64,000 nucleotides of DNA, from positions 5,916 through 69,915 of the forward strand of contig CAZPQG010000005.1 of NCBI GenBank assembly GCA_964588685.1, read 5' to 3'. This document shows positions 1,367-63,951 of this stretch, piece by piece (the stretch's first letter is position 1; every line of letters begins with the position of its first letter). The translations under genes were made by a program, and so were the position numbers. Source of the DNA: an uncultured Pseudomonadales bacterium. GTDB lineage: Bacteria > Patescibacteriota > Microgenomatia > UBA1400 > PJMF01. The notes beneath the pieces are model-generated. The model did no database searches, had not been told where the DNA came from, and worked only from the letters and a program-made list of their open reading frames with translations.

Positions 1367-3619
1367 TTAATTAAGCTCACCCTCTCTAGCTTTTATTTTT
1401 GATTGTAAATTTTCTATTCTTTCTTTTAGAGCATGGTCGTTGGGTAGTAAATTGCGCAAGTTATATTGATACTGTTCTAAAGCCTGGGTGTAATTACCAC
1501 TGTGTTCGTAAATTAAACCTAATTGGTGGCGCGCTTGATGATAATCAGGCTTCATGATAATAGCCTGCTTAATAGTGTCAATGGCTTGCTCTTGTTTGCC
1601 CATCCTGTATTCAATTAAGCCCTGTTGATAAACTAATTTTGGGTCAGTTGGAGCTTTATTTTGAGCCTTTAGTAATATTTTTCGAGAAGTTTCTAAATGT
1701 TGTTCATCAATAACAGCCAGTCGAGAATAAATGGCTGATTGACTTTTATAAAAATTTAAATGATGAGGGTTTAGCTCCAGTGTTTGTTCAGCTGCGGCTT
1801 TAGTTAGAGCAGTATATTGCTGCGCTGCTTCTGGTTTTCCTTCTTCAAAAAGGTTGACTGCGGCTTGGGCGTAGCCGTCAGCTAACTCATCATAAAATAA
1901 TGCTTCTTGCGGGGCAAGCAATACAGCTCGCTGTAAATCGGCAATGCCTTGGGAGTAATTGTGTTTAGCTAACTGCTGTTTGCCTTTAAAATGCAGATGA
2001 TCAGCATGCCAAATGGCTGTCAGCCGCATCAATAAATAAAAAGCGATTAAGCCTAACCAAAATAAGGTAATAATTTGGAAAAAAGATAGTTTTTTGCCGG
2101 AGTTTGCAGCTTGAGTTGAAGTAGTAAAAGAGCTGCTGCCGGCTGCTGCCTGATTTAAACTTAAATAAGACATGAAAAATACCCAAAGCACAGATACCAT
2201 GACTGTAGAAAACCCTAAAATGTTGGTGATATTGAAGCCCACTAGGCTGGCGCCAAGGCTGAGTATCAGCTGCTGTTGAGCGGAAAAATTATTGGATTGT
2301 TGATGCGGCTGTTTTGTTAAAGTCGGCCAAAGCGCTTTTGCCGTCAAGTAAAAACAGCTGCCCATCAGGAAAAGATAGGTGCTCAAACCCACAATGCCGG
2401 TGGTAGCAAGTAAGTTTAAAAGTTCGTTGTGAGCTTTATTATATAAAAAATCCCACTCTGATACCAAGTTGTGTTCTTGAGGTCGATCAAGATAATAAGT
2501 ATAAGCAAATGTTTCAGGGCCGGAGCCTAGCCAGGGATAGCGTTGCCAGATTTTTAAAGCTCCTTGCCAAACAATTAACCTAATTTTTTCTGAAGGAGTG
2601 ATGGTGATGCCGGCTTGCTGATTTTTATTTGATTCAGACCGCGGCGGTATTGGGTCTTCTGTTGTAGAATCAGGTCTCCAAATAGGCAAAAGCCGGCCTA
2701 AAGAGTGGGTAAAATCAGTGCCGACTACGACAGTTAGGCCGGCTATTAATAAGATTAATGACACCATAGCTTTTTTACTTGCAGTTTGGAGTTTGAATTT
2801 CTTTTCAAGCATAGTTTTGAGAGTGGAGCCGCTTTTAACAAGGCAGCCCAGCATTAACATTAAGCTGACAGCAATTGCCAGCAAAGCTGATCTTGATTGA
2901 GTAAAGAGGAGAGCCAGAAAAATTGCCAAACTGCCCAACAGCCAGCGCTGTCGGAGTAAATTGAAAAGGGTTGATTGATTAAAATTGGTTTTTGGTGTTA
3001 AAACAGTGTGCAGATGAAAGCTAATTCCTAGAGGTAAAAGCATGGCTAAATATGCTCCAAGCCAATTAGGCTGGCCAAAAGTAGCAAAAACTCTGTGCCG
3101 CACGTCTTGCATCCAGCAATTGTCATTGAAGCGTCCACTAATGATAAAACAGCTGGGCGACATACCTAGTTTTTCGGGAATGGCGTATAAACTGACGCCG
3201 ATACCGGCTAAAACGGCTGTTTTGAGTAAGGTTAATACTTGATTTTTATTAAAATTGCTGACAAAAGCCCAATAGAGCAGGGCGTAAGAGAGAGTTGAAA
3301 GCAGCCCGCCGTGAAAGCGGGAATAGTACCCGAAAATTGAGGTATAAGGATGCAGAGAAAAAAAAGTAGCTAACATATTGCTGAGTAAAAAGGCCAGCCA
3401 AGCCCAATCAAGGAAAGTGTGTTTAAAAATAATTTTTTTAGCAGTGATCATGCGTCCAATCCAGGCAGTGGTAATCACAATTGTTATGCCATAAACAAAC
3501 AGCATTTTATTAAACTCAAAAAGCTCCACATTAAACCAGGTAAATAAAAAGGGTGTGACAGCCAAGAGTAAGTTGGCGCCTAAAAAGATGGTTTTTTTAA
3601 AAAATTTATTTAAAAACAT
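1367..3619 (-). CDS. Polytopic membrane protein with an O-antigen ligase/polymerase-like (Wzy_C/WaaL-like) core and a C-terminal TPR repeat domain.
   Basis: Many predicted TM helices. QPNWLGAYLAMLLPLGISF-type segment as in O-antigen ligase family proteins. The C-terminal roughly 230 aa show TPR-like repeats (ALFYDELADGYAQA; HQLGLIYEHSGNYTQALEQY). Confidence 0.55.
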   Translation of the reverse strand: MFLNKFFKKTIFLGANLLLAVTPFLFTWFNVELFEFNKMLFVYGITIVITTAWIGRMITAKKIIFKHTFLDWAWLAFLLSNMLATFFSLHPYTSIFGYYSRFHGGLLSTLSYALLYWAFVSNFNKNQVLTLLKTAVLAGIGVSLYAIPEKLGMSPSCFIISGRFNDNCWMQDVRHRVFATFGQPNWLGAYLAMLLPLGISFHLHTVLTPKTNFNQSTLFNLLRQRWLLGSLAIFLALLFTQSRSALLAIAVSLMLMLGCLVKSGSTLKTMLEKKFKLQTASKKAMVSLILLIAGLTVVVGTDFTHSLGRLLPIWRPDSTTEDPIPPRSESNKNQQAGITITPSEKIRLIVWQGALKIWQRYPWLGSGPETFAYTYYLDRPQEHNLVSEWDFLYNKAHNELLNLLATTGIVGLSTYLFLMGSCFYLTAKALWPTLTKQPHQQSNNFSAQQQLILSLGASLVGFNITNILGFSTVMVSVLWVFFMSYLSLNQAAAGSSSFTTSTQAANSGKKLSFFQIITLFWLGLIAFYLLMRLTAIWHADHLHFKGKQQLAKHNYSQGIADLQRAVLLAPQEALFYDELADGYAQAAVNLFEEGKPEAAQQYTALTKAAAEQTLELNPHHLNFYKSQSAIYSRLAVIDEQHLETSRKILLKAQNKAPTDPKLVYQQGLIEYRMGKQEQAIDTIKQAIIMKPDYHQARHQLGLIYEHSGNYTQALEQYQYNLRNLLPNDHALKERIENLQSKIKAREGELN

Positions 3620-3667
3620 ATTAAAAATAAGGTGATTTAAAATCGGTTGGATAATGCAGTATTAAAT

Positions 3668-4077
3668 TTAATTCTGATTATACCCCGCAGCTTGCTACGG
3701 GGAACAAATCAGAATGGGGTGTAGACTAATTAGGTAATAAAGTTTTTTGCTTATTATTAATTATATTATTTAAAGTTTATTCTAAATCTTTTGTTTATTT
3801 TCTGTGTTGCCTTCTCCTTAAGTGCTTGAGTGCAACACTAGTGTCGTCAGCGCCTTGAAAATAAAACAAAATCTTTATGAAATCAATGCAACTTTATTAC
3901 CCGATTAGTCTATTCAAGGGGGAATCCCCCTTGGTGTGACTGGGGGTTTAATACCCCTAGTCACAGGGGAGCAGGCTTTGTTCTTGCAAAGCAAGACAAA
4001 ACGCTGAGGGCCCTCCCTCAGAATTTATTATACTCTGATCATTGTTGAGCCCATAAAGAATCTATTTTAACAGGCGG
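3668..4077. repeat. Structured, hairpin-dense intergenic element (copy A, full length). A 23-bp module TTAATTCTGATTATACCCCGCAG sits at 3668-3690. A 34-bp module AAAACGCTGAGGGCCCTCCCTCAGAATTTATTA sits at 3997-4030, and TTAACAGGCGG follows at about 4067-4077. Both modules recur at 63845-63951.
   Basis: The same modules occur at both loci, seen directly in the sequence. Between the modules copy A carries at least four strong hairpins: CCAAGGGGGAATCCCCCTTGG, GTGACTGGGG..CCCCTAGTCAC, TTTGTTCTTGCAAAGCAAGACAAA and CTGAGGGCCCTCCCTCAG. The inverted repeat ATTCTGATT/AATCAGAAT lies at 3671-3716. Confidence 0.55.
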
Positions 4078-4227: not shown

Positions 4228-5709
4228 ATGCACGTACAAAAAAAGCAAAATCAACAGATGAATGATAATCAAACACAAAACCAGCCAGTACAGCCCGGCC
4301 AGCCCGGCCAACCTGCTCAACCCGGCCAGGCTAAGCAAGCCAACCAACAAGCTCAACCCGGACAAGCAATTCAAACTGAGTCAACAAAAAAAATAACTAA
4401 GCCAAAGCAAAATCAACCGGCTCAGCAGGCGCAATCCAAACAACAGGCCCAACCGGCACAACCTAAACAACCGGCGCAGCCTAAACAAGCCAAAGCACCG
4501 GCCAAACCCAAACAGCCTGCCCAACCTGCGCAGCAACAGCAGGCTGAAAAAACACCACAGCAAGCTGCCAATACACAGCCCGAGCAAAAACAGCAGGAGG
4601 CTTCAGGCAGTCAACAAGCACAACAGGCCGCTGATAACACTGATTATGTTAAATCGTATAATCCACCTGATACAGATAAAGACTCAACTGCTCACAAACA
4701 AACAAAGCAATCAACCGAGGATGACCAGCAAGCAGGGCAGCAACCGGGCAATGACCAACAGCCTGCACAGCAAAATGAGGATCAACAGTCATCAAAGCAA
4801 AAGACTGACCAGCAGCAGAAAAAAGCTGATTTTGAAGAAGTTGATAAAAAATTAGAAGAGGAAATTCAACGCCTTGAAGAAATGGTAAATAAATTTTCCG
4901 GGGAAGCTCCAAAAGCAAAAGCTCCGGAAGAATCAGCTGAGACAGCTAACGCAGGCGAGGTAGCCGGTCAAGCTGGTAAAGGACAGGAGAAAAGCGACCA
5001 GTCAAAATCAGCCGCAGCCCAACCAAAACAACCAGGCCAGCCTGCCCAACCAAAGCAGCCCGGCCAACCTGTGCAACCAAAACAACCAGGCCAGCCCGCA
5101 CAGCCACAGCAGGCTGAAAAAACACAGCAGCAGACATCACAACAGCAGGCATCTCCCTCTGAAGCAGCTCAAACTGATCAGGATCAGACTACTCAAGCTC
5201 AAACAGCACAAGCTCAAACTTCCGGTAGTGAACAGGCAGATTCTGTTCTTCCTAACTCTGAAAAGCTTATTGATCAAAACATTTTTTATTTACTAGGTAT
5301 TCAAAATAATGATCAGCGAGAAAAAGACGATTTTTTAGGTGACCTGCAGGAGATTATTTGGGAGGATTTCTTGGAAAATGATTTGCCGGCCATGATTGAT
5401 GATGACAAGCGAGCTGAAGTTGATAAAATTTTGCAAAATGATCAAGCCGATAATTGGCAAAAACAAGAGCAAGTTTTATCTTTTTTGGAAAGAGAAATGT
5501 CAGATCTGGAACAGGTGATGGAGAAAAAGGCGTTGGTCTTTAAGCAAAAATTAGTAGAGCAAAGAATTGAAGATATGAAAGAGCAATTTGCTCAGAATAA
5601 TGATGTTTTGCAAAAGATCAAGCAAGCAGAGGTAGAGATCGGCCAAGGGAATTGGAAGTCAGGCTCAATTTTGTTAAATGAAGCCGCTGCCATGGCAGCG
5701 GAGGGCTAA
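4228..5709 (+). CDS. Large low-complexity Q/P/A/K-rich protein (predicted intrinsically disordered) with internal PKQPGQPAQ-type repeats and a C-terminal coiled-coil/acidic domain. Function unknown.
   Basis: The protein is 493 aa. QPGQPAQP / KQPAQPKQ repeat blocks occur at about aa 20-110 and aa 265-300. There is no signal peptide or TM segment. The C-terminal 150 aa are non-repetitive. The gene lies immediately upstream of the mreB-like gene. Confidence 0.45.
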   Translation: MHVQKKQNQQMNDNQTQNQPVQPGQPGQPAQPGQAKQANQQAQPGQAIQTESTKKITKPKQNQPAQQAQSKQQAQPAQPKQPAQPKQAKAPAKPKQPAQPAQQQQAEKTPQQAANTQPEQKQQEASGSQQAQQAADNTDYVKSYNPPDTDKDSTAHKQTKQSTEDDQQAGQQPGNDQQPAQQNEDQQSSKQKTDQQQKKADFEEVDKKLEEEIQRLEEMVNKFSGEAPKAKAPEESAETANAGEVAGQAGKGQEKSDQSKSAAAQPKQPGQPAQPKQPGQPVQPKQPGQPAQPQQAEKTQQQTSQQQASPSEAAQTDQDQTTQAQTAQAQTSGSEQADSVLPNSEKLIDQNIFYLLGIQNNDQREKDDFLGDLQEIIWEDFLENDLPAMIDDDKRAEVDKILQNDQADNWQKQEQVLSFLEREMSDLEQVMEKKALVFKQKLVEQRIEDMKEQFAQNNDVLQKIKQAEVEIGQGNWKSGSILLNEAAAMAAEG

Positions 5710-52574: not shown

Positions 52575-52868
52575 TATATTAACTATTATAACTCATTCCG
52601 ATGATTATTTTAACTATTTTGACTTGAATTTAATCTAAAATGACCGACAGCACTTTTAACAGTATCCTTAACATCATTTTTAAGCTGTATTAATTTGAGA
52701 CTTTTAAATTTGCAGCAAGCTGCCTGAAATTTATTTAGCAGCAGCTGTTATAATAAAATGGTTGTTAAAATAAAAAATAGTTGATAAAACTAATTACTAC
52801 ATAAACAAAGACGGAAGCTGTAGGTTGAGCGAATTTATTACTTATTTTTTTACTAAAGAAAGGTAATT

Positions 52869-53531
52869 ATGATTATTAAATATTACGGCCACGCCTGCTT
52901 CAAACTTAGGGGCACTGATGGGTCAGTTGTTACTGACCCTTATCATGATTTTATTGGCTTTGACTTGCCGAACTTAAGCGCAGATATTGTGACAGTGTCG
53001 CATGATAATCCGGCTCATAATAATTATGAAGCTATTAATAACACCTCGCGGCGTGAAAGCCCGTTTATTATTGAGAAACCGGGTGAATATCAAATTCAAA
53101 ATATTTCCATCTTTGGAGTTAAAGCGTATCAAGATGATAAACAAGGATCATTGAGAGGGGAAAACTATATTTTCAGTCTTTTAGTTGACGGCCTCAAGGT
53201 ATGTCATTTAGGGGGCTTAGGTCATAAATTAGATGATAAAAAAGTTGCTGAAATTGGATTGGTTGATATCCTTTTTTTACCTATTGGCGGAGGGATGACT
53301 TTAAATCCTAAAGAGGCAACACAGGTGGCTCGTTCTTTAGAGCCTAACATTGTGATCCCCATGATTCATAAACTGCCTGATCATAATCAAGAAAATTTTT
53401 CAGAATTAAGCTCTTTAGAAGATTTTTACAAAGCTTATGAAGCTGAGCCGAAACCAATCAATAAGCTTAATATCGCCCGCAGCAATTTACCTGAAGAAAT
53501 GGAATTAATGGTTCTAAACAAATTTAATTAA
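52869..53531 (+). CDS. Metallo-beta-lactamase-fold hydrolase (UPF0173-like).
   Basis: MIIKYYGHACFKL...VTVSHDNPAHNN (HxHxD-like). A later CHLGGLGH. Confidence 0.5.
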   Translation: MIIKYYGHACFKLRGTDGSVVTDPYHDFIGFDLPNLSADIVTVSHDNPAHNNYEAINNTSRRESPFIIEKPGEYQIQNISIFGVKAYQDDKQGSLRGENYIFSLLVDGLKVCHLGGLGHKLDDKKVAEIGLVDILFLPIGGGMTLNPKEATQVARSLEPNIVIPMIHKLPDHNQENFSELSSLEDFYKAYEAEPKPINKLNIARSNLPEEMELMVLNKFN

Positions 53532-63844: not shown

Positions 63845-63951
63845 TTAATTCTGATTATACCTCGCAGTTAATTCTGATTATACCTCGCAGTTTGGCCATA
63901 TTTAACGGATAAAACACTGAGGGCCCTCCCTCAAAATTTATTAACAGGCAG
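63845..63951. repeat. Second, shortened copy of the 3668-4077 element. The 23-bp module TTAATTCTGATTATACCTCGCAG is tandemly duplicated (63845-63867 and 63868-63890). AAAACACTGAGGGCCCTCCCTCAAAATTTATTAACAGGCAG follows at 63911-63951. The window ends 49 bp later.
   Basis: Direct comparison by eye. The two loci share the end modules but not the hairpin-rich roughly 300-bp core, nor a 37-bp segment present in copy A. Confidence 0.55.

What the first reader, a model, noticed from the sequence alone, without database searches (positions are those of the whole stretch)
3668..4077. Hairpin-dense structured element of about 410 bp in a divergent 600-bp intergenic gap, with a reduced second copy 60 kb away
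The intergenic gaps in this window are usually 50-150 bp. This one is 608 bp and GC-rich in its second half. It contains four consecutive near-perfect hairpins: CCAAGGGGGAATCCCCCTTGG, GTGACTGGGG..CCCCTAGTCAC, TTTGTTCTTGCAAAGCAAGACAAA and CTGAGGGCCCTCCCTCAG. It also has a nested inverted repeat, ATTCTGATT..CCCCG..CGGGG..AATCAGAAT. Its two end modules (a 23-mer and a 34-mer) recur at 63845-63951, where the 23-mer is tandemly duplicated but the roughly 300-bp hairpin core is missing. Copy A also carries a 37-bp segment between TTA and TTAACAGG that copy B lacks. That pattern fits either a MITE-like mobile or recombining repeat family with full-length and deleted forms, or a small structured ncRNA gene flanked by repeat modules. 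I could not match it to tmRNA, RNase P, SRP or 6S RNA signatures.
Basis: seen in the sequence. Interest (0 to 1): 0.65.

Follow-up and report, generated by a model that had tools for sequence, protein, structure and literature searches.

The report
Dispersed six-hairpin intergenic repeat family
The 410-bp hairpin cluster is one damaged copy of a previously uncatalogued ~210-base repeat, scattered between housekeeping genes of a few uncultured small-genome bacteria, that folds into six conserved hairpins and behaves like a small non-coding mobile element.

Summary
In detail: every hairpin and both end modules are present, and none is expected by chance. The unit was misjudged, though. The real unit is a ~210-nt element. 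I found at least 33 copies in 29 metagenome loci and 2 MAGs, up to 3 copies in 7.8 kb. It has six consecutive hairpins (H1-H6), near-invariant linkers and a ~46-nt invariant core, GGGGAGCAGGC-H4-ACG-base of H5.

Covariation is strong: 94% of cells are paired against 40-53% in slid controls, and 25 pairs show changes on both sides. No Rfam family matches.

Window copy A (3666-4066) is this unit split by a foreign 191-nt hairpin insert (3722-3912), with a decayed last hairpin. Copy B (63845-63943) is an internal-deletion relic.

Copies sit next to unrelated genes, are present or absent at orthologous spacers, and lack terminal inverted repeats. They follow an ATT(T/A)ATT motif that the element repeats at its own 3' end. 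In co-directional gene contexts they face the same way as the genes 12:2. The opposite strand carries a terminator.

Best reading: a non-autonomous, hairpin-dependent mobile element resembling the protein-less derivatives of IS200/IS605 (PATEs), tolerated only in the transcription-permissive orientation. No transposase was found. An RNA-level function of the copies is not excluded.

The parts
3666..3673 (+). 5' boundary motif ATTTAATT. The family consensus is ATT(T/A)ATT, target-like. Its last three bases are the first bases of H1.
   Evidence: Position frequencies over 29 copies; consensus in alignments A1 and A2.
3671..3715 (+). Hairpin H1. Outer stem ATTCTGATT/AATCAGAAT, internal loop, inner stem CCCCGCAG/CTACGGGG, loop CUUG.
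   Evidence: pair I23. CM hit 3669-3781, 49.7 bits. Helices 1-3.
3716..3721 (+). Remnant of linker L1 (GGGGTG; family consensus UGGGGGUU).
   Evidence: Alignment A1.
3722..3912 (.). Nested 191-nt AT-rich hairpin insertion with 23-nt terminal inverted repeats (TAGACTAATTAGGTAATAAAGTT / AACTTTATTACCCGATTAGTCTA). Not part of the family unit.
   Evidence: (pair I1), (z = -5.0). Absent from all other copies. No other copy in any sequence held.
3915..3933 (+). Hairpin H2 (CAAGGGGG AAU CCCCCUUG).
   Evidence: Helix 4: 3 of 8 pairs show changes on both sides.
3935..3965 (+). Hairpin H3 (UGUGACU.GGGG ... CCCC.AGUCACA).
   Evidence: Helices 5-6: 9 of 11 pairs show changes on both sides.
3966..3976 (+). 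Near-invariant linker L2, GGGGAGCAGGC.
   Evidence: Commonest base has mean frequency 0.96.
3977..4003 (+). Invariant hairpin H4 (UUUG-U-UCUUGC AAA GCAAGA CAAA) plus linker ACG. On the minus strand this is the U-rich tract that follows H5.
   Evidence: (helix 7). A copy found without the search pattern keeps it.
4004..4021 (+). Hairpin H5 (CUGAGGG CCCU CCCUCAG). Read on the minus strand and followed by CGUUUUGUCUU, it matches an intrinsic terminator.
   Evidence: The same antisense site occurs in other copies. Helix 8.
4022..4066 (+). Degenerate H6/tail of copy A. It starts with AATTTATT and ends with AATCTATT. The family consensus is AAAUGAGC...GCGAAUUUAUU.
   Evidence: CM alignment of 3894-4066, 108 bits, with mismatches in H6.
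63845..63890 (+). Copy B: the H1 5' arm (23-mer) twice in tandem. One public assembly (L004) has it only once.
63891..63916 (+). Copy B: degenerate remnant of L2/H4 (TTTGGCCATATTTAACGGATAAAACA). It is joined to H1 through a GCAG microhomology, which indicates an internal deletion of the H1 3' arm, H2 and H3.
   Evidence: read directly. Analogous deletions occur in L017/L028, L025 and L034 2328-2502.
63917..63943 (+). Copy B: H5 (last pair broken, G>A) followed directly by the 3' motif AAATTTATTA. H6 is missing.
   Evidence: family D9.

Best explanation
Window 3666-4066 is a damaged copy, and 63845-63943 a deletion relic, of a ~210-nt non-coding repeat family. The family is dispersed through the intergenic spacers of a narrow group of uncultured small-genome bacteria.

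Shown:
- The unit is six consecutive hairpins with conserved linkers and a ~46-nt invariant core.
- The stems co-vary.
- Copies lie beside unrelated housekeeping genes and are present or absent at orthologous spacers.
- There are no terminal inverted repeats.
- The DNA just 5' of each copy reads ATT(T/A)ATT, and the element itself ends in (GCGA)ATTTATT.
- In co-directional gene contexts the element points the same way as the genes, 12:2.
- The opposite strand carries a hairpin plus U-tract terminator.

Inferred:
- It is, or was, a non-autonomous mobile element moved in trans by a hairpin-recognising single-strand mechanism, most like the protein-less PATE derivatives of IS200/IS605. It inserts 3' of the ATT(T/A)ATT motif, including behind the 3' end of older copies.
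- Selection then keeps mainly insertions whose sense strand lets transcription pass into the downstream gene.
- In the reverse orientation the element supplies a terminator to convergent genes.

In this genome the family is decaying: copy A is interrupted and its H6 is degraded, and copy B has an internal deletion.
For: Family and copy number:
- 3 hits in 2 MAGs.
- 30 exact-pattern hits in 29 metagenome loci, with 4 on one 101-kb contig.
- The covariance model found 29 full copies at 145-246 bits, plus degenerate ones and 3 copies within 7.8 kb of L034.
- Public short-read assemblies of the window's genome break inside the element.

Structure:
- 94.3% of cells are paired, against 39.6-53.2% when partners are slid.
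- 25 pairs have changes on both sides, against 4-10 when slid.
- 0 of 500 shuffles reach the observed values.
- G.U-type cells number 43 in 20 columns; A.C-type cells number 18 in 7 columns.

Conservation outside the search pattern: L2 0.96, H4 5' arm 0.98, L1 0.93. By contrast the H1 inner stem is 0.68, H3 0.69 and the H6 inner part 0.60.

Not a gene-specific leader: the downstream genes are ADP-forming acetyl-CoA synthetase, GlmS, RpoA, SHMT, LeuRS, ThyA, RadA, an NTPase, a DUF4012 protein and a tRNA.

Insertion polymorphism:
- The rpsD-rpoA spacer is occupied in L018 and empty in L019; the empty site reads AAATTATT|AAATATCC.
- The spacer upstream of thyA is occupied in L027 and empty in the window.

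Ends:
- No inverted termini.
- The 5' flank is T/T/(T,A,G)/A/T/T and the 3' end is GCGAATTTATT.
- Relics of an older 3' end lie directly upstream of L011 and L030.
- In IS200/IS605 the flanking target motif (TAM) and the element's own terminal motif (TEM) differ only slightly, and protein-less PATE copies exist (PMC10055086).

Orientation and terminator:
- In co-directional contexts, 12 copies face the same way as the genes and 2 the opposite way.
- The antisense terminator appears in every copy scanned.
- Stop codons of convergent genes abut or overlap the element's 3' end in L009b, L030, L035 and L036.
Against: - No transposase of any kind was found. A crude motif filter for TnpB-like and Y1-like proteins on 251 ORFs (~300 kb of associated contigs) gave nothing plausible, and there is no multi-copy protein. 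No copy encloses an ORF.
- The most conserved part is internal (L2-H4), not terminal. That fits a functional RNA core better than transposase-binding ends.
- CUUG and GNRA-type loops and tandem G.A pairs look RNA-like, although the same motifs are also stable in DNA.
- H1 starts inside the supposed target motif, unlike IS608-type left ends.
- No covariation was found between the flank motif and an internal 'guide' position.
- radA has a copy upstream in two genomes whose radA genes are only 71% identical. This could mean retention by selection rather than repeated insertion.
Confidence: 0.5

Rival explanations
1. The copies are host-selected cis-acting RNA modules inside mRNAs, in 5' leaders and intercistronic spacers. 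The folded six-hairpin RNA with its invariant core would bind a protein or ribosome component, or control processing, stability or translation start of the downstream gene. Mobility would only be the way it spread.
For: - The pattern 'variable stems with compensatory changes plus invariant single-stranded linkers' is typical of functional RNAs.
- G.U-type cells exceed A.C-type cells on the gene-sense strand.
- The loops are CUUG or GAAA, and tandem G.A pairs occur in H6 and H3.
- The element is co-oriented with genes 12:2.
- In about 15 copies its 3' end lies 0-35 nt from the start codon. GlmS and RadA start 0 nt after it, with no Shine-Dalgarno sequence.
- Near-identical paralogues differ by compensatory changes in H1, e.g. 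CCCC/GGGG against CUCC/GGAG.
- radA has the element upstream in two distant genomes.
Against: - The downstream genes share no function.
- One copy precedes a tRNA gene, and others sit between convergent genes.
- Orthologous spacers often lack it.
- Degenerate and internally deleted copies are common, and both copies in the window are damaged.
- Closeness to start codons is expected for any insertion into 50-100-nt spacers.
Confidence: 0.25
2. It is a PATE-like element whose conserved core encodes a guide-RNA scaffold (omega-RNA-like) for a TnpB/IscB-type nuclease encoded elsewhere. The guide would be the flanking DNA, and the T-rich flank motif would be the TAM.
For: - PATEs often carry omega-RNAs used in trans (PMC10055086).
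- The conserved structured core lies in the 3' half and ends at the element boundary.
- The flank motif is T-rich.
Against: - There are no Rfam hits to the omega-RNA/HEARO/IS605-orfB families.
- No TnpB-like ORF turned up in about 300 kb.
- The element's own 3' end carries the same motif as the flank. A nuclease using that motif as TAM would therefore also cut occupied sites (inference and PMC10055086).
Confidence: 0.08
3. The repeats are recombination sites for a site-specific (tyrosine) recombinase, att- or attC-like, such as the XerC/D-type gene 2 kb beyond copy B.
For: - The same ~7-nt core appears as a direct repeat at both junctions. In three copies a rare variant at position -4 occurs on both sides (L005, L009a, L013).
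- A recombinase gene lies near copy B.
Against: - Only copy B lies near such a gene. No recombinase domain turned up among the ORFs scanned beside copies.
- Per-copy similarity between the 5' and 3' motifs is not above the between-copy level (476 of 5000 permutations reach it).
- The unit carries no cargo.
Confidence: 0.04
4. It is a stand-alone small-RNA gene family (trans-acting sRNAs), or merely a cluster of terminators.
For: - Very stable fold: z = -7.1 for a compact copy.
- Multi-copy sRNA families do exist (own knowledge).
Against: - There is no conserved promoter and no sense-strand terminator.
- The flanks are not conserved beyond 7 nt.
- Only one of the six hairpins is terminator-like, and only on the antisense strand.
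- Covariation and invariant linkers are not expected of plain terminators.
Confidence: 0.04

Closest known systems
PATEs (palindrome-associated transposable elements): protein-less derivatives of IS200/IS605 moved in trans by the Y1 HUH transposase TnpA
   Same: - Short, non-coding and multi-copy.
- No terminal inverted repeats.
- Hairpins near both ends on one strand.
- A conserved short motif on the left flank resembles the motif at the element's own right end, as with TAM and TEM (PMC10055086).
- Orientation bias.
   Different: - No TnpA or TnpB was found.
- Six hairpins, with the most conserved block internal.
- H1 overlaps the flank motif.
- No guide-motif covariation was seen.
- No Rfam omega-RNA match.
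Classical bacterial MITEs and related transcribed repeats (Correia/NEMIS, ERIC/IRU, RUP), from own knowledge and PMC3184786 (seen only as a search-result abstract)
   Same: Small intergenic, AT-target-associated repeats. They are co-transcribed with neighbouring genes, fold as RNA and can carry terminators or affect expression.
   Different: Those have terminal inverted repeats and target-site duplications and fold as one long hairpin. This family has neither inverted termini nor a single-hairpin fold. Only the 191-nt insert nested in copy A looks like that kind.
BOX elements of Streptococcus pneumoniae (modular boxA-boxB-boxC; own knowledge)
   Same: - Modular non-coding repeat.
- Conserved end modules with a variable or deletable middle.
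- Stable predicted RNA structure.
- Located close to gene starts.
- No known transposase.
   Different: No sequence relation was tested or expected. BOX modules vary by copy number of boxB; here the reduced forms arise by microhomology deletions.
REP/BIME/REPIN elements with RAYT (Y1) transposases (own knowledge)
   Same: Intergenic hairpin repeats maintained by a trans-acting HUH enzyme, often acting as mRNA 3' stabilisers or terminators.
   Different: REPs are 20-40-nt palindromes with a GTAG head. This unit is ~210 nt with six different hairpins.
Rfam RF02937 Clostridiales-2 RNA
   Same: Sub-threshold cmscan alignments over H2-H3 in three copies (20.7-21.5 bits, E = 0.4-0.7).
   Different: Far below the gathering score of 58.6. 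The alignment covers only two generic hairpins, and the three hits are homologous copies, not independent evidence. Not a member.

Membership tests
IS200/IS605-derived PATE | No terminal inverted repeats | tested here: met
   The 5' end CTGATTATAC... and the reverse complement of the 3' end AATAAATTCGC... do not match. The shared motif is a direct repeat, not an inverted one.
IS200/IS605-derived PATE | Insertion 3' of a short conserved target motif (TAM), with a similar motif (TEM) at the element's right end | tested here: met
   The 5' flank reads T T (T/A/G) A T T in 25-29 of 29 copies. The 3' end is GCGAATTTATT, and the right flank is unconserved. The empty site in L019 reads AAATTATT|. Feature definition from PMC10055086.
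IS200/IS605-derived PATE | Subterminal hairpins on one (top) strand at both ends | tested here: met
   H1 lies at the 5' end and H5/H6 at the 3' end. Strand asymmetry: G.T-type 43 cells against A.C-type 18.
IS200/IS605-derived PATE | Covariation between TAM/TEM and internal DNA guide bases | tested here: inconclusive
   Mutual information between flank position -4 and every column is at most 0.33 bit, with no clear partner. Only 29 sequences, and the motif varies little.
IS200/IS605-derived PATE | A Y1 (HUH) TnpA, or a TnpB/IscB element with the same ends, in the same genome | tested here: inconclusive
   A crude motif filter on 251 ORFs from about 300 kb of carrier contigs found none.
Classical TIR-type MITE | Terminal inverted repeats plus target-site duplication | tested here: not met
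   There are no inverted termini. The match between 5' and 3' motifs within a copy is not above the between-copy level (476 of 5000 permutations reach it).
Any Rfam 15 RNA family (tmRNA, RNase P, SRP, 6S, HEARO/omega-RNA, ribozymes, riboswitches) | Covariance-model score at or above the gathering threshold | tested here: not met
   No hit was found in the window region even at E <= 10 beyond noise. Compact copies give only Clostridiales-2 at 21 bits against a threshold of 58.6.
Riboswitch / gene-specific cis-regulatory leader | Consistent association with functionally related downstream genes | tested here: not met
   The ten downstream proteins scanned belong to unrelated pathways, and one copy precedes a tRNA gene.
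Stand-alone sRNA gene | Own promoter and terminator bounding the conserved RNA | tested here: not met
   No consistent sigma-70-like site and no sense-strand terminator. The scan covers only the sigma-70 consensus.
Intrinsic terminator (antisense strand only) | GC-rich hairpin followed by a U-tract | tested here: met
   H5 followed by CGTTTTGTCT on the antisense strand in the window and in L026, L019 and L005. This region is invariant across the family.
IS110-type element with bridge RNA | Conserved target on both flanks, and internal loops complementary to target or donor | tested here: not met
   The right flank is unconserved. There is no copy-specific identity or complementarity between internal sequence and a copy's own flanks: own mean 6.2-6.9 against 6.2-6.6 for other copies' flanks.

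The most novel reading that the evidence does not exclude
The family is not a passive transposon relic but a new class of RNA. It would be a ~210-nt six-hairpin RNA with an invariant 46-nt core, spread as a cassette in front of many housekeeping genes of reduced-genome bacteria, and working at each locus. Possible roles are a leader that organises Shine-Dalgarno-independent translation starts or mRNA processing, or an RNA whose own fold (ribozyme- or guide-like) drives its mobility without a conventional transposase.
Probability: 0.12. Interest if true: 0.8.

Novelty: new variant of a known kind. Interest (0 to 1): 0.5.

Why it matters
Small-genome uncultured bacteria are thought to carry very little repeated or non-coding DNA. 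This family is an exception. A strongly structured, sequence-constrained ~210-nt repeat sits in otherwise minimal spacers, even inside the conserved rpsD-rpoA operon and directly against start codons.

- If it is a PATE-like element, it marks active single-strand transposition in these lineages. It also explains assembly breaks in their MAGs.
- If the invariant core works as RNA, it would be a new multi-copy RNA motif worth adding to Rfam and testing.

Either way, the covariance model built here gives a concrete handle for annotating these loci.

Tried and rejected
- **Known RNA families.** Rfam at gathering and at permissive thresholds, on the window and on compact copies: nothing usable.
- **tRNA/tmRNA.** ARAGORN finds only two ordinary tRNAs, elsewhere in the window.
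- **Prophage or island bounded by the two copies 60 kb apart.** Rejected, because the ORFs scanned at the left end of the interval are chromosomal housekeeping genes: MreB, MreC, PBP2, TopA, with ribosomal protein S2 and EF-Ts near its right end.
- **Phage or plasmid origin.** No match in viral contigs, INPHARED phages or PLSDB plasmids.
- **Riboswitch or leader.** Rejected by the unrelated downstream genes.
- **Outward promoter in H6.** Hand inspection and the scanner gave no consistent -35/-10.
- **Bridge-RNA-like programmable loops.** No complementarity between a copy and its own flanks.
- **Pseudoknot or alternative pairings of linker L2 with the H1 apex or the H6 5' arm.** Not conserved across subfamilies.
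- **Target-site duplication.** The permutation test was not significant, although three rare variants match on both sides.
- **Replication-strand test by GC skew.** 24:8 in favour, but confounded with coding-strand bias.
- **Orthologous-locus comparison for the window's own site.** MreB has no relative above 47% identity.
- **Source contig.** The 95-kb NCBI source contig could not be fetched.
- **Literature.** Searches for the core sequence and for CPR repeat elements found nothing.
Full report
**1. The observation**

The gap between the divergent ORFs 1367-3619(-) and 4228-5709(+) is 608 bp. The first ORF is a Wzy_C/TPR membrane protein; the second is a Q/P-rich protein with no Pfam match. 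The second half of the gap is richer in GC than the first.

There is one letter error: the first hairpin is TCAAGGGGGAATCCCCCTTGG, not CCAAGG....

The 23-mer occurs at 3668, 63845 and 63868. The H5/tail module occurs at 4004 and 63917. Zero matches are expected in shuffles for either.

The region folds much better than shuffled sequence on both strands, z = -6.4 and -9.3. No Rfam family matches on either strand, even at E <= 10. ARAGORN finds only two ordinary tRNAs, elsewhere in the window.

**2. What the unit really is**

*Finding more copies.* A scan of species-representative genomes with the 5' module found compact versions of about 190-210 nt in two MAGs. In these, H1 is followed directly by H2. 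A 25-mer common to all copies (TTGCAAAGCAAGACAAAACGCTGAG) then retrieved 30 copies in 29 metagenome loci. No viral contig matched.

*The family unit*, written 5' to 3':
- ATT(T/A)ATT overlapping H1 (AUUCUGAUU..CCCCG..loop..CGGGG..AAUCAGAAU)
- linker UGGGGGUU
- H2 (CUAGGGGG..CCCCCUAG)
- H3 (UGUGACU...AGUCACA)
- linker GGGGAGCAGGC
- H4 (UUUGAUCUUGC AAA GCAAGACAAA)
- linker ACG
- H5 (CUGAGGGG..CCCCUCAG)
- H6 (AAAU GA GC...GC GA AUUU)
- AUU

*Window copy A* is this unit with two defects.
- A 191-nt AT-rich hairpin with 23-nt terminal inverted repeats (3722-3912) is inserted in the H1-H2 linker. It occurs nowhere else in the sequence I hold.
- The last hairpin, H6, is degenerate.

*Window copy B* keeps four things: the 5' arm of H1 (duplicated), a degraded L2/H4, H5, and the terminal AAATTTATT.
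- The junction CGCAG|TTTGG fits a deletion between GCAG in H1 and GCAG in linker L2.
- Independent deletions of the same kind occur in L017/L028, L025 and L034 2328-2502.
- The 23-mer duplication is polymorphic: L004 has one copy. It is flanked by AGTT microhomology, so it is a trivial slippage event.

**3. Structure**

I built a covariance model from 20 copies with a hand-drawn six-hairpin structure. It recovered 29 full-length copies at 145-246 bits. One of them (L034 4145-4368) does not contain the search pattern. It nevertheless keeps H4 exactly and differs only in ACG to AUG.

Pair counts on the model alignment:

| Measure | Observed | Partners slid by 1-3 columns |
|---|---|---|
| Cells forming standard pairs | 94.3% | 39.6-53.2% |
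| Pairs with changes on both sides | 25 | 4-10 |
| Cells with such changes | 108 | 9-31 |

None of 500 shuffles reaches the observed values. The alignment was fitted to the model, which favours the structure. However, the MAFFT-only alignment already showed the compensatory changes in H2 and H5.

*Where the variation lies.* H2, H3 and the inner stem of H1 carry most of the covariation. H4 never varies. Outside the ascertainment pattern, mean frequency of the commonest base is as follows:

| Segment | Mean frequency |
|---|---|
| H4 5' arm | 0.98 |
| Linker L2 | 0.96 |
| H6 5' arm | 0.94 |
| Linker L1 | 0.93 |
| H6 3' arm plus end | 0.90 |
| H3 | 0.69 |
| H1 inner stem | 0.68 |
| H6 inner part | 0.60 |

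*Which strand.* G.U-type cells (43, in 20 columns) outnumber A.C-type cells (18, in 7 columns) on the strand written above. The mismatches at two H3 pairs in one subfamily, and in H6, are tandem G.A/A.G. Loops are often CUUG, or GAAA/GAA in copies with a short H6.

These features favour this strand over its complement. They do not separate RNA from single-stranded DNA. GCGAAGC and GCGAAAGC are also classic stable DNA mini-hairpins (own knowledge).

**4. Context**

*Neighbouring genes.* The downstream genes are unrelated:
- ADP-forming acetyl-CoA synthetase
- GlmS
- a DUF4012 protein
- an NTPase
- RpoA
- SHMT
- LeuRS
- ThyA
- RadA
- one tRNA gene

The genes between the three L034 copies are likewise ordinary: DNA ligase, Fic, RecF and others.

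*Orientation.* Only co-directional gene contexts are informative about orientation. There the element faces the same way as the genes in 12 cases and the opposite way in 2.

*Promoters and terminators.* There is no consistent sigma-70-type promoter and no sense-strand terminator. On the antisense strand, H5 followed by CGUUUUGUCUU matches an intrinsic terminator in every copy scanned. Several convergent genes end within a few bases of the element's 3' end, or overlap it.

This gives a simple reason for the orientation bias. An antisense insertion between a promoter and its gene, or inside an operon, would be polar. This step is inference.

*Distance to start codons.* The 3' end lies 0-35 nt from the downstream start codon in about 15 copies. 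In some it is 0 nt, with no Shine-Dalgarno sequence (GlmS in L009, RadA in L011). In genomes with 50-100-nt spacers this closeness is largely expected for any insertion.

**5. Evidence for insertion**

*Present or absent at orthologous spacers.*
- The rpsD-rpoA spacer carries the element in L018. The orthologous spacer in L019 reads TAAAAATTATT|AAATATCC... with no element.
- thyA has the element upstream in L027 but not in the window.
- radA has it upstream in two genomes whose radA genes are 71% identical (L011, L031). This means either retention or a hot spot.

*Ends.*
- In 29 copies the six bases before CTGATT read T,T,(T16/A10/G3),A,T,T. The element ends in GCGAATTTATT. The right flank is unconserved.
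- There are no inverted termini.
- The 5' and 3' motifs are not more alike within a copy than between copies (476 of 5000 permutations reach the observed similarity). However, the three rare 3' variants at position -4 all match their own 5' side.
- L011 and L030 have relics of an older 3' end (H5-H6, or H6 alone) directly upstream of the current copy. New copies therefore seem to land behind the 3' motif of old ones.

*Assembly behaviour.* Short-read assemblies of the window's own genome break inside the element, as expected for a repeat.

**6. Comparison with known kinds**

*Closest: PATEs.* The combination 'no inverted repeats, conserved left-flank motif, similar motif at the element's right end, hairpins near both ends on one strand, protein-less multi-copy forms' is that of PATE-type derivatives of IS200/IS605. 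In those elements the flanking TAM and the element-encoded TEM differ only slightly (PMC10055086).

The defining partner, a Y1 TnpA (or TnpB) element with matching ends, was not found.
- A crude motif filter over 251 ORFs from about 300 kb of carrier contigs gave nothing.
- No protein is multi-copy.
- No covariation between the flank motif and an internal guide base was detected.

I therefore say it works like a PATE, not that it is one.

*Rejected kinds.*
- Classical MITE: no TIR or TSD.
- IS110/bridge-RNA: unconserved right flank, and no loop-flank complementarity.
- Riboswitch: unrelated downstream genes.
- sRNA gene: no promoter or terminator.
- Any Rfam family: no score near a gathering threshold.

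*An omega-RNA reading* is weakened because the element's own 3' end carries the putative TAM. A nuclease using that TAM would cut occupied sites as well.

**7. What stays open**

The invariance of an internal 46-nt block, together with compensatory change in the stems, is more typical of a working RNA than of a selfish DNA whose constraints sit at the ends. I give the cis-acting RNA-module reading 0.25 and the PATE-like mobile-element reading 0.5. The two are not exclusive.

The host lineage is uncertain.
- Pfam families DUF5654, DUF5656 and DUF4012 and the very short spacers suggest Patescibacteria (inference).
- The two MAG records are titled 'uncultured Pseudomonadales bacterium'.
- The window's MreB has no relative above 47% identity among 5.8 billion proteins.

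**8. Verdict**

This is a real, non-chance feature and a new, uncatalogued family of structured dispersed repeats. Both copies in the window are damaged. Its kind is known (bacterial non-autonomous interspersed repeats), but its architecture is unusual. Interest is moderate: 0.5.

Noticed in passing
L003 8147-10164 (starts at window ~63802 and runs ~1.8 kb past the window end): About 2 kb with no ORF of 51 aa or more (the longest on the + strand is 40 aa; a 76-aa and a 50-aa frame lie on the - strand), in a genome whose spacers are usually 50-150 bp. It begins right after copy B and is followed by a XerC/D-type tyrosine recombinase gene (L003 10164-11141). No Rfam hit at E <= 1. It contains three tandem TTGTGAAAAY units near L003 9816-9845.
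   Followed up: partly
L007 ~2238-2262; L014 (H5 loop); L031 ~180-200; L025 ~1290-1340: A GC-rich 18-20-nt palindrome, CCTGCC(T/G)NCCGGNAGGCAGG, appears as an extra insert at different positions of family copies: in the H5 loop, or inside linker L2, and twice in tandem in L025. It may be a second, tiny palindromic insertion family or a product of snap-back duplication.
   Followed up: no
window 3722-3912: A 191-nt AT-rich hairpin with 23-nt terminal inverted repeats is nested in copy A. It is single-copy in everything held. L013 has an unrelated 45-nt insert at the same linker, so this linker tolerates insertions.
   Followed up: partly
window 4228-5709: A 493-aa Q/P/A/K-rich protein with 9-nt periodic DNA repeats and no Pfam match, directly downstream of copy A.
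   Followed up: no
window 63845-63890 versus L004: The tandem 23-mer of copy B occurs once in one public assembly (SRR31818007) and twice in another (SRR14492187) and in the window. This is either a strain-level length polymorphism or an assembly collapse.
   Followed up: yes
L009 10494/10495; L011 1275/1274; L034 7113/7111: The start codons of GlmS, RadA and a small ORF follow the element's last base by 0-1 nt, with no Shine-Dalgarno sequence. These genomes seem to start translation without one at many genes.
   Followed up: no
window 52818-52840 and L008 6010-6125: These may be further relics of the family. The window has GAGCGAATTTATT just upstream of the gene at 52869. L008 has a degenerate H1-H5-H6 remnant ending in GTTAACGAATTTATT (CM E = 0.5).
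   Followed up: partly
L005, L006, L007 (MAGs CAYXBZ01, CAZSQY01): The record titles call these MAGs 'uncultured Pseudomonadales bacterium'. The gene content of carrier contigs (DUF5654, DUF5656, DUF4012, tiny spacers) looks Patescibacteria-like, so the label may be wrong.
   Followed up: no
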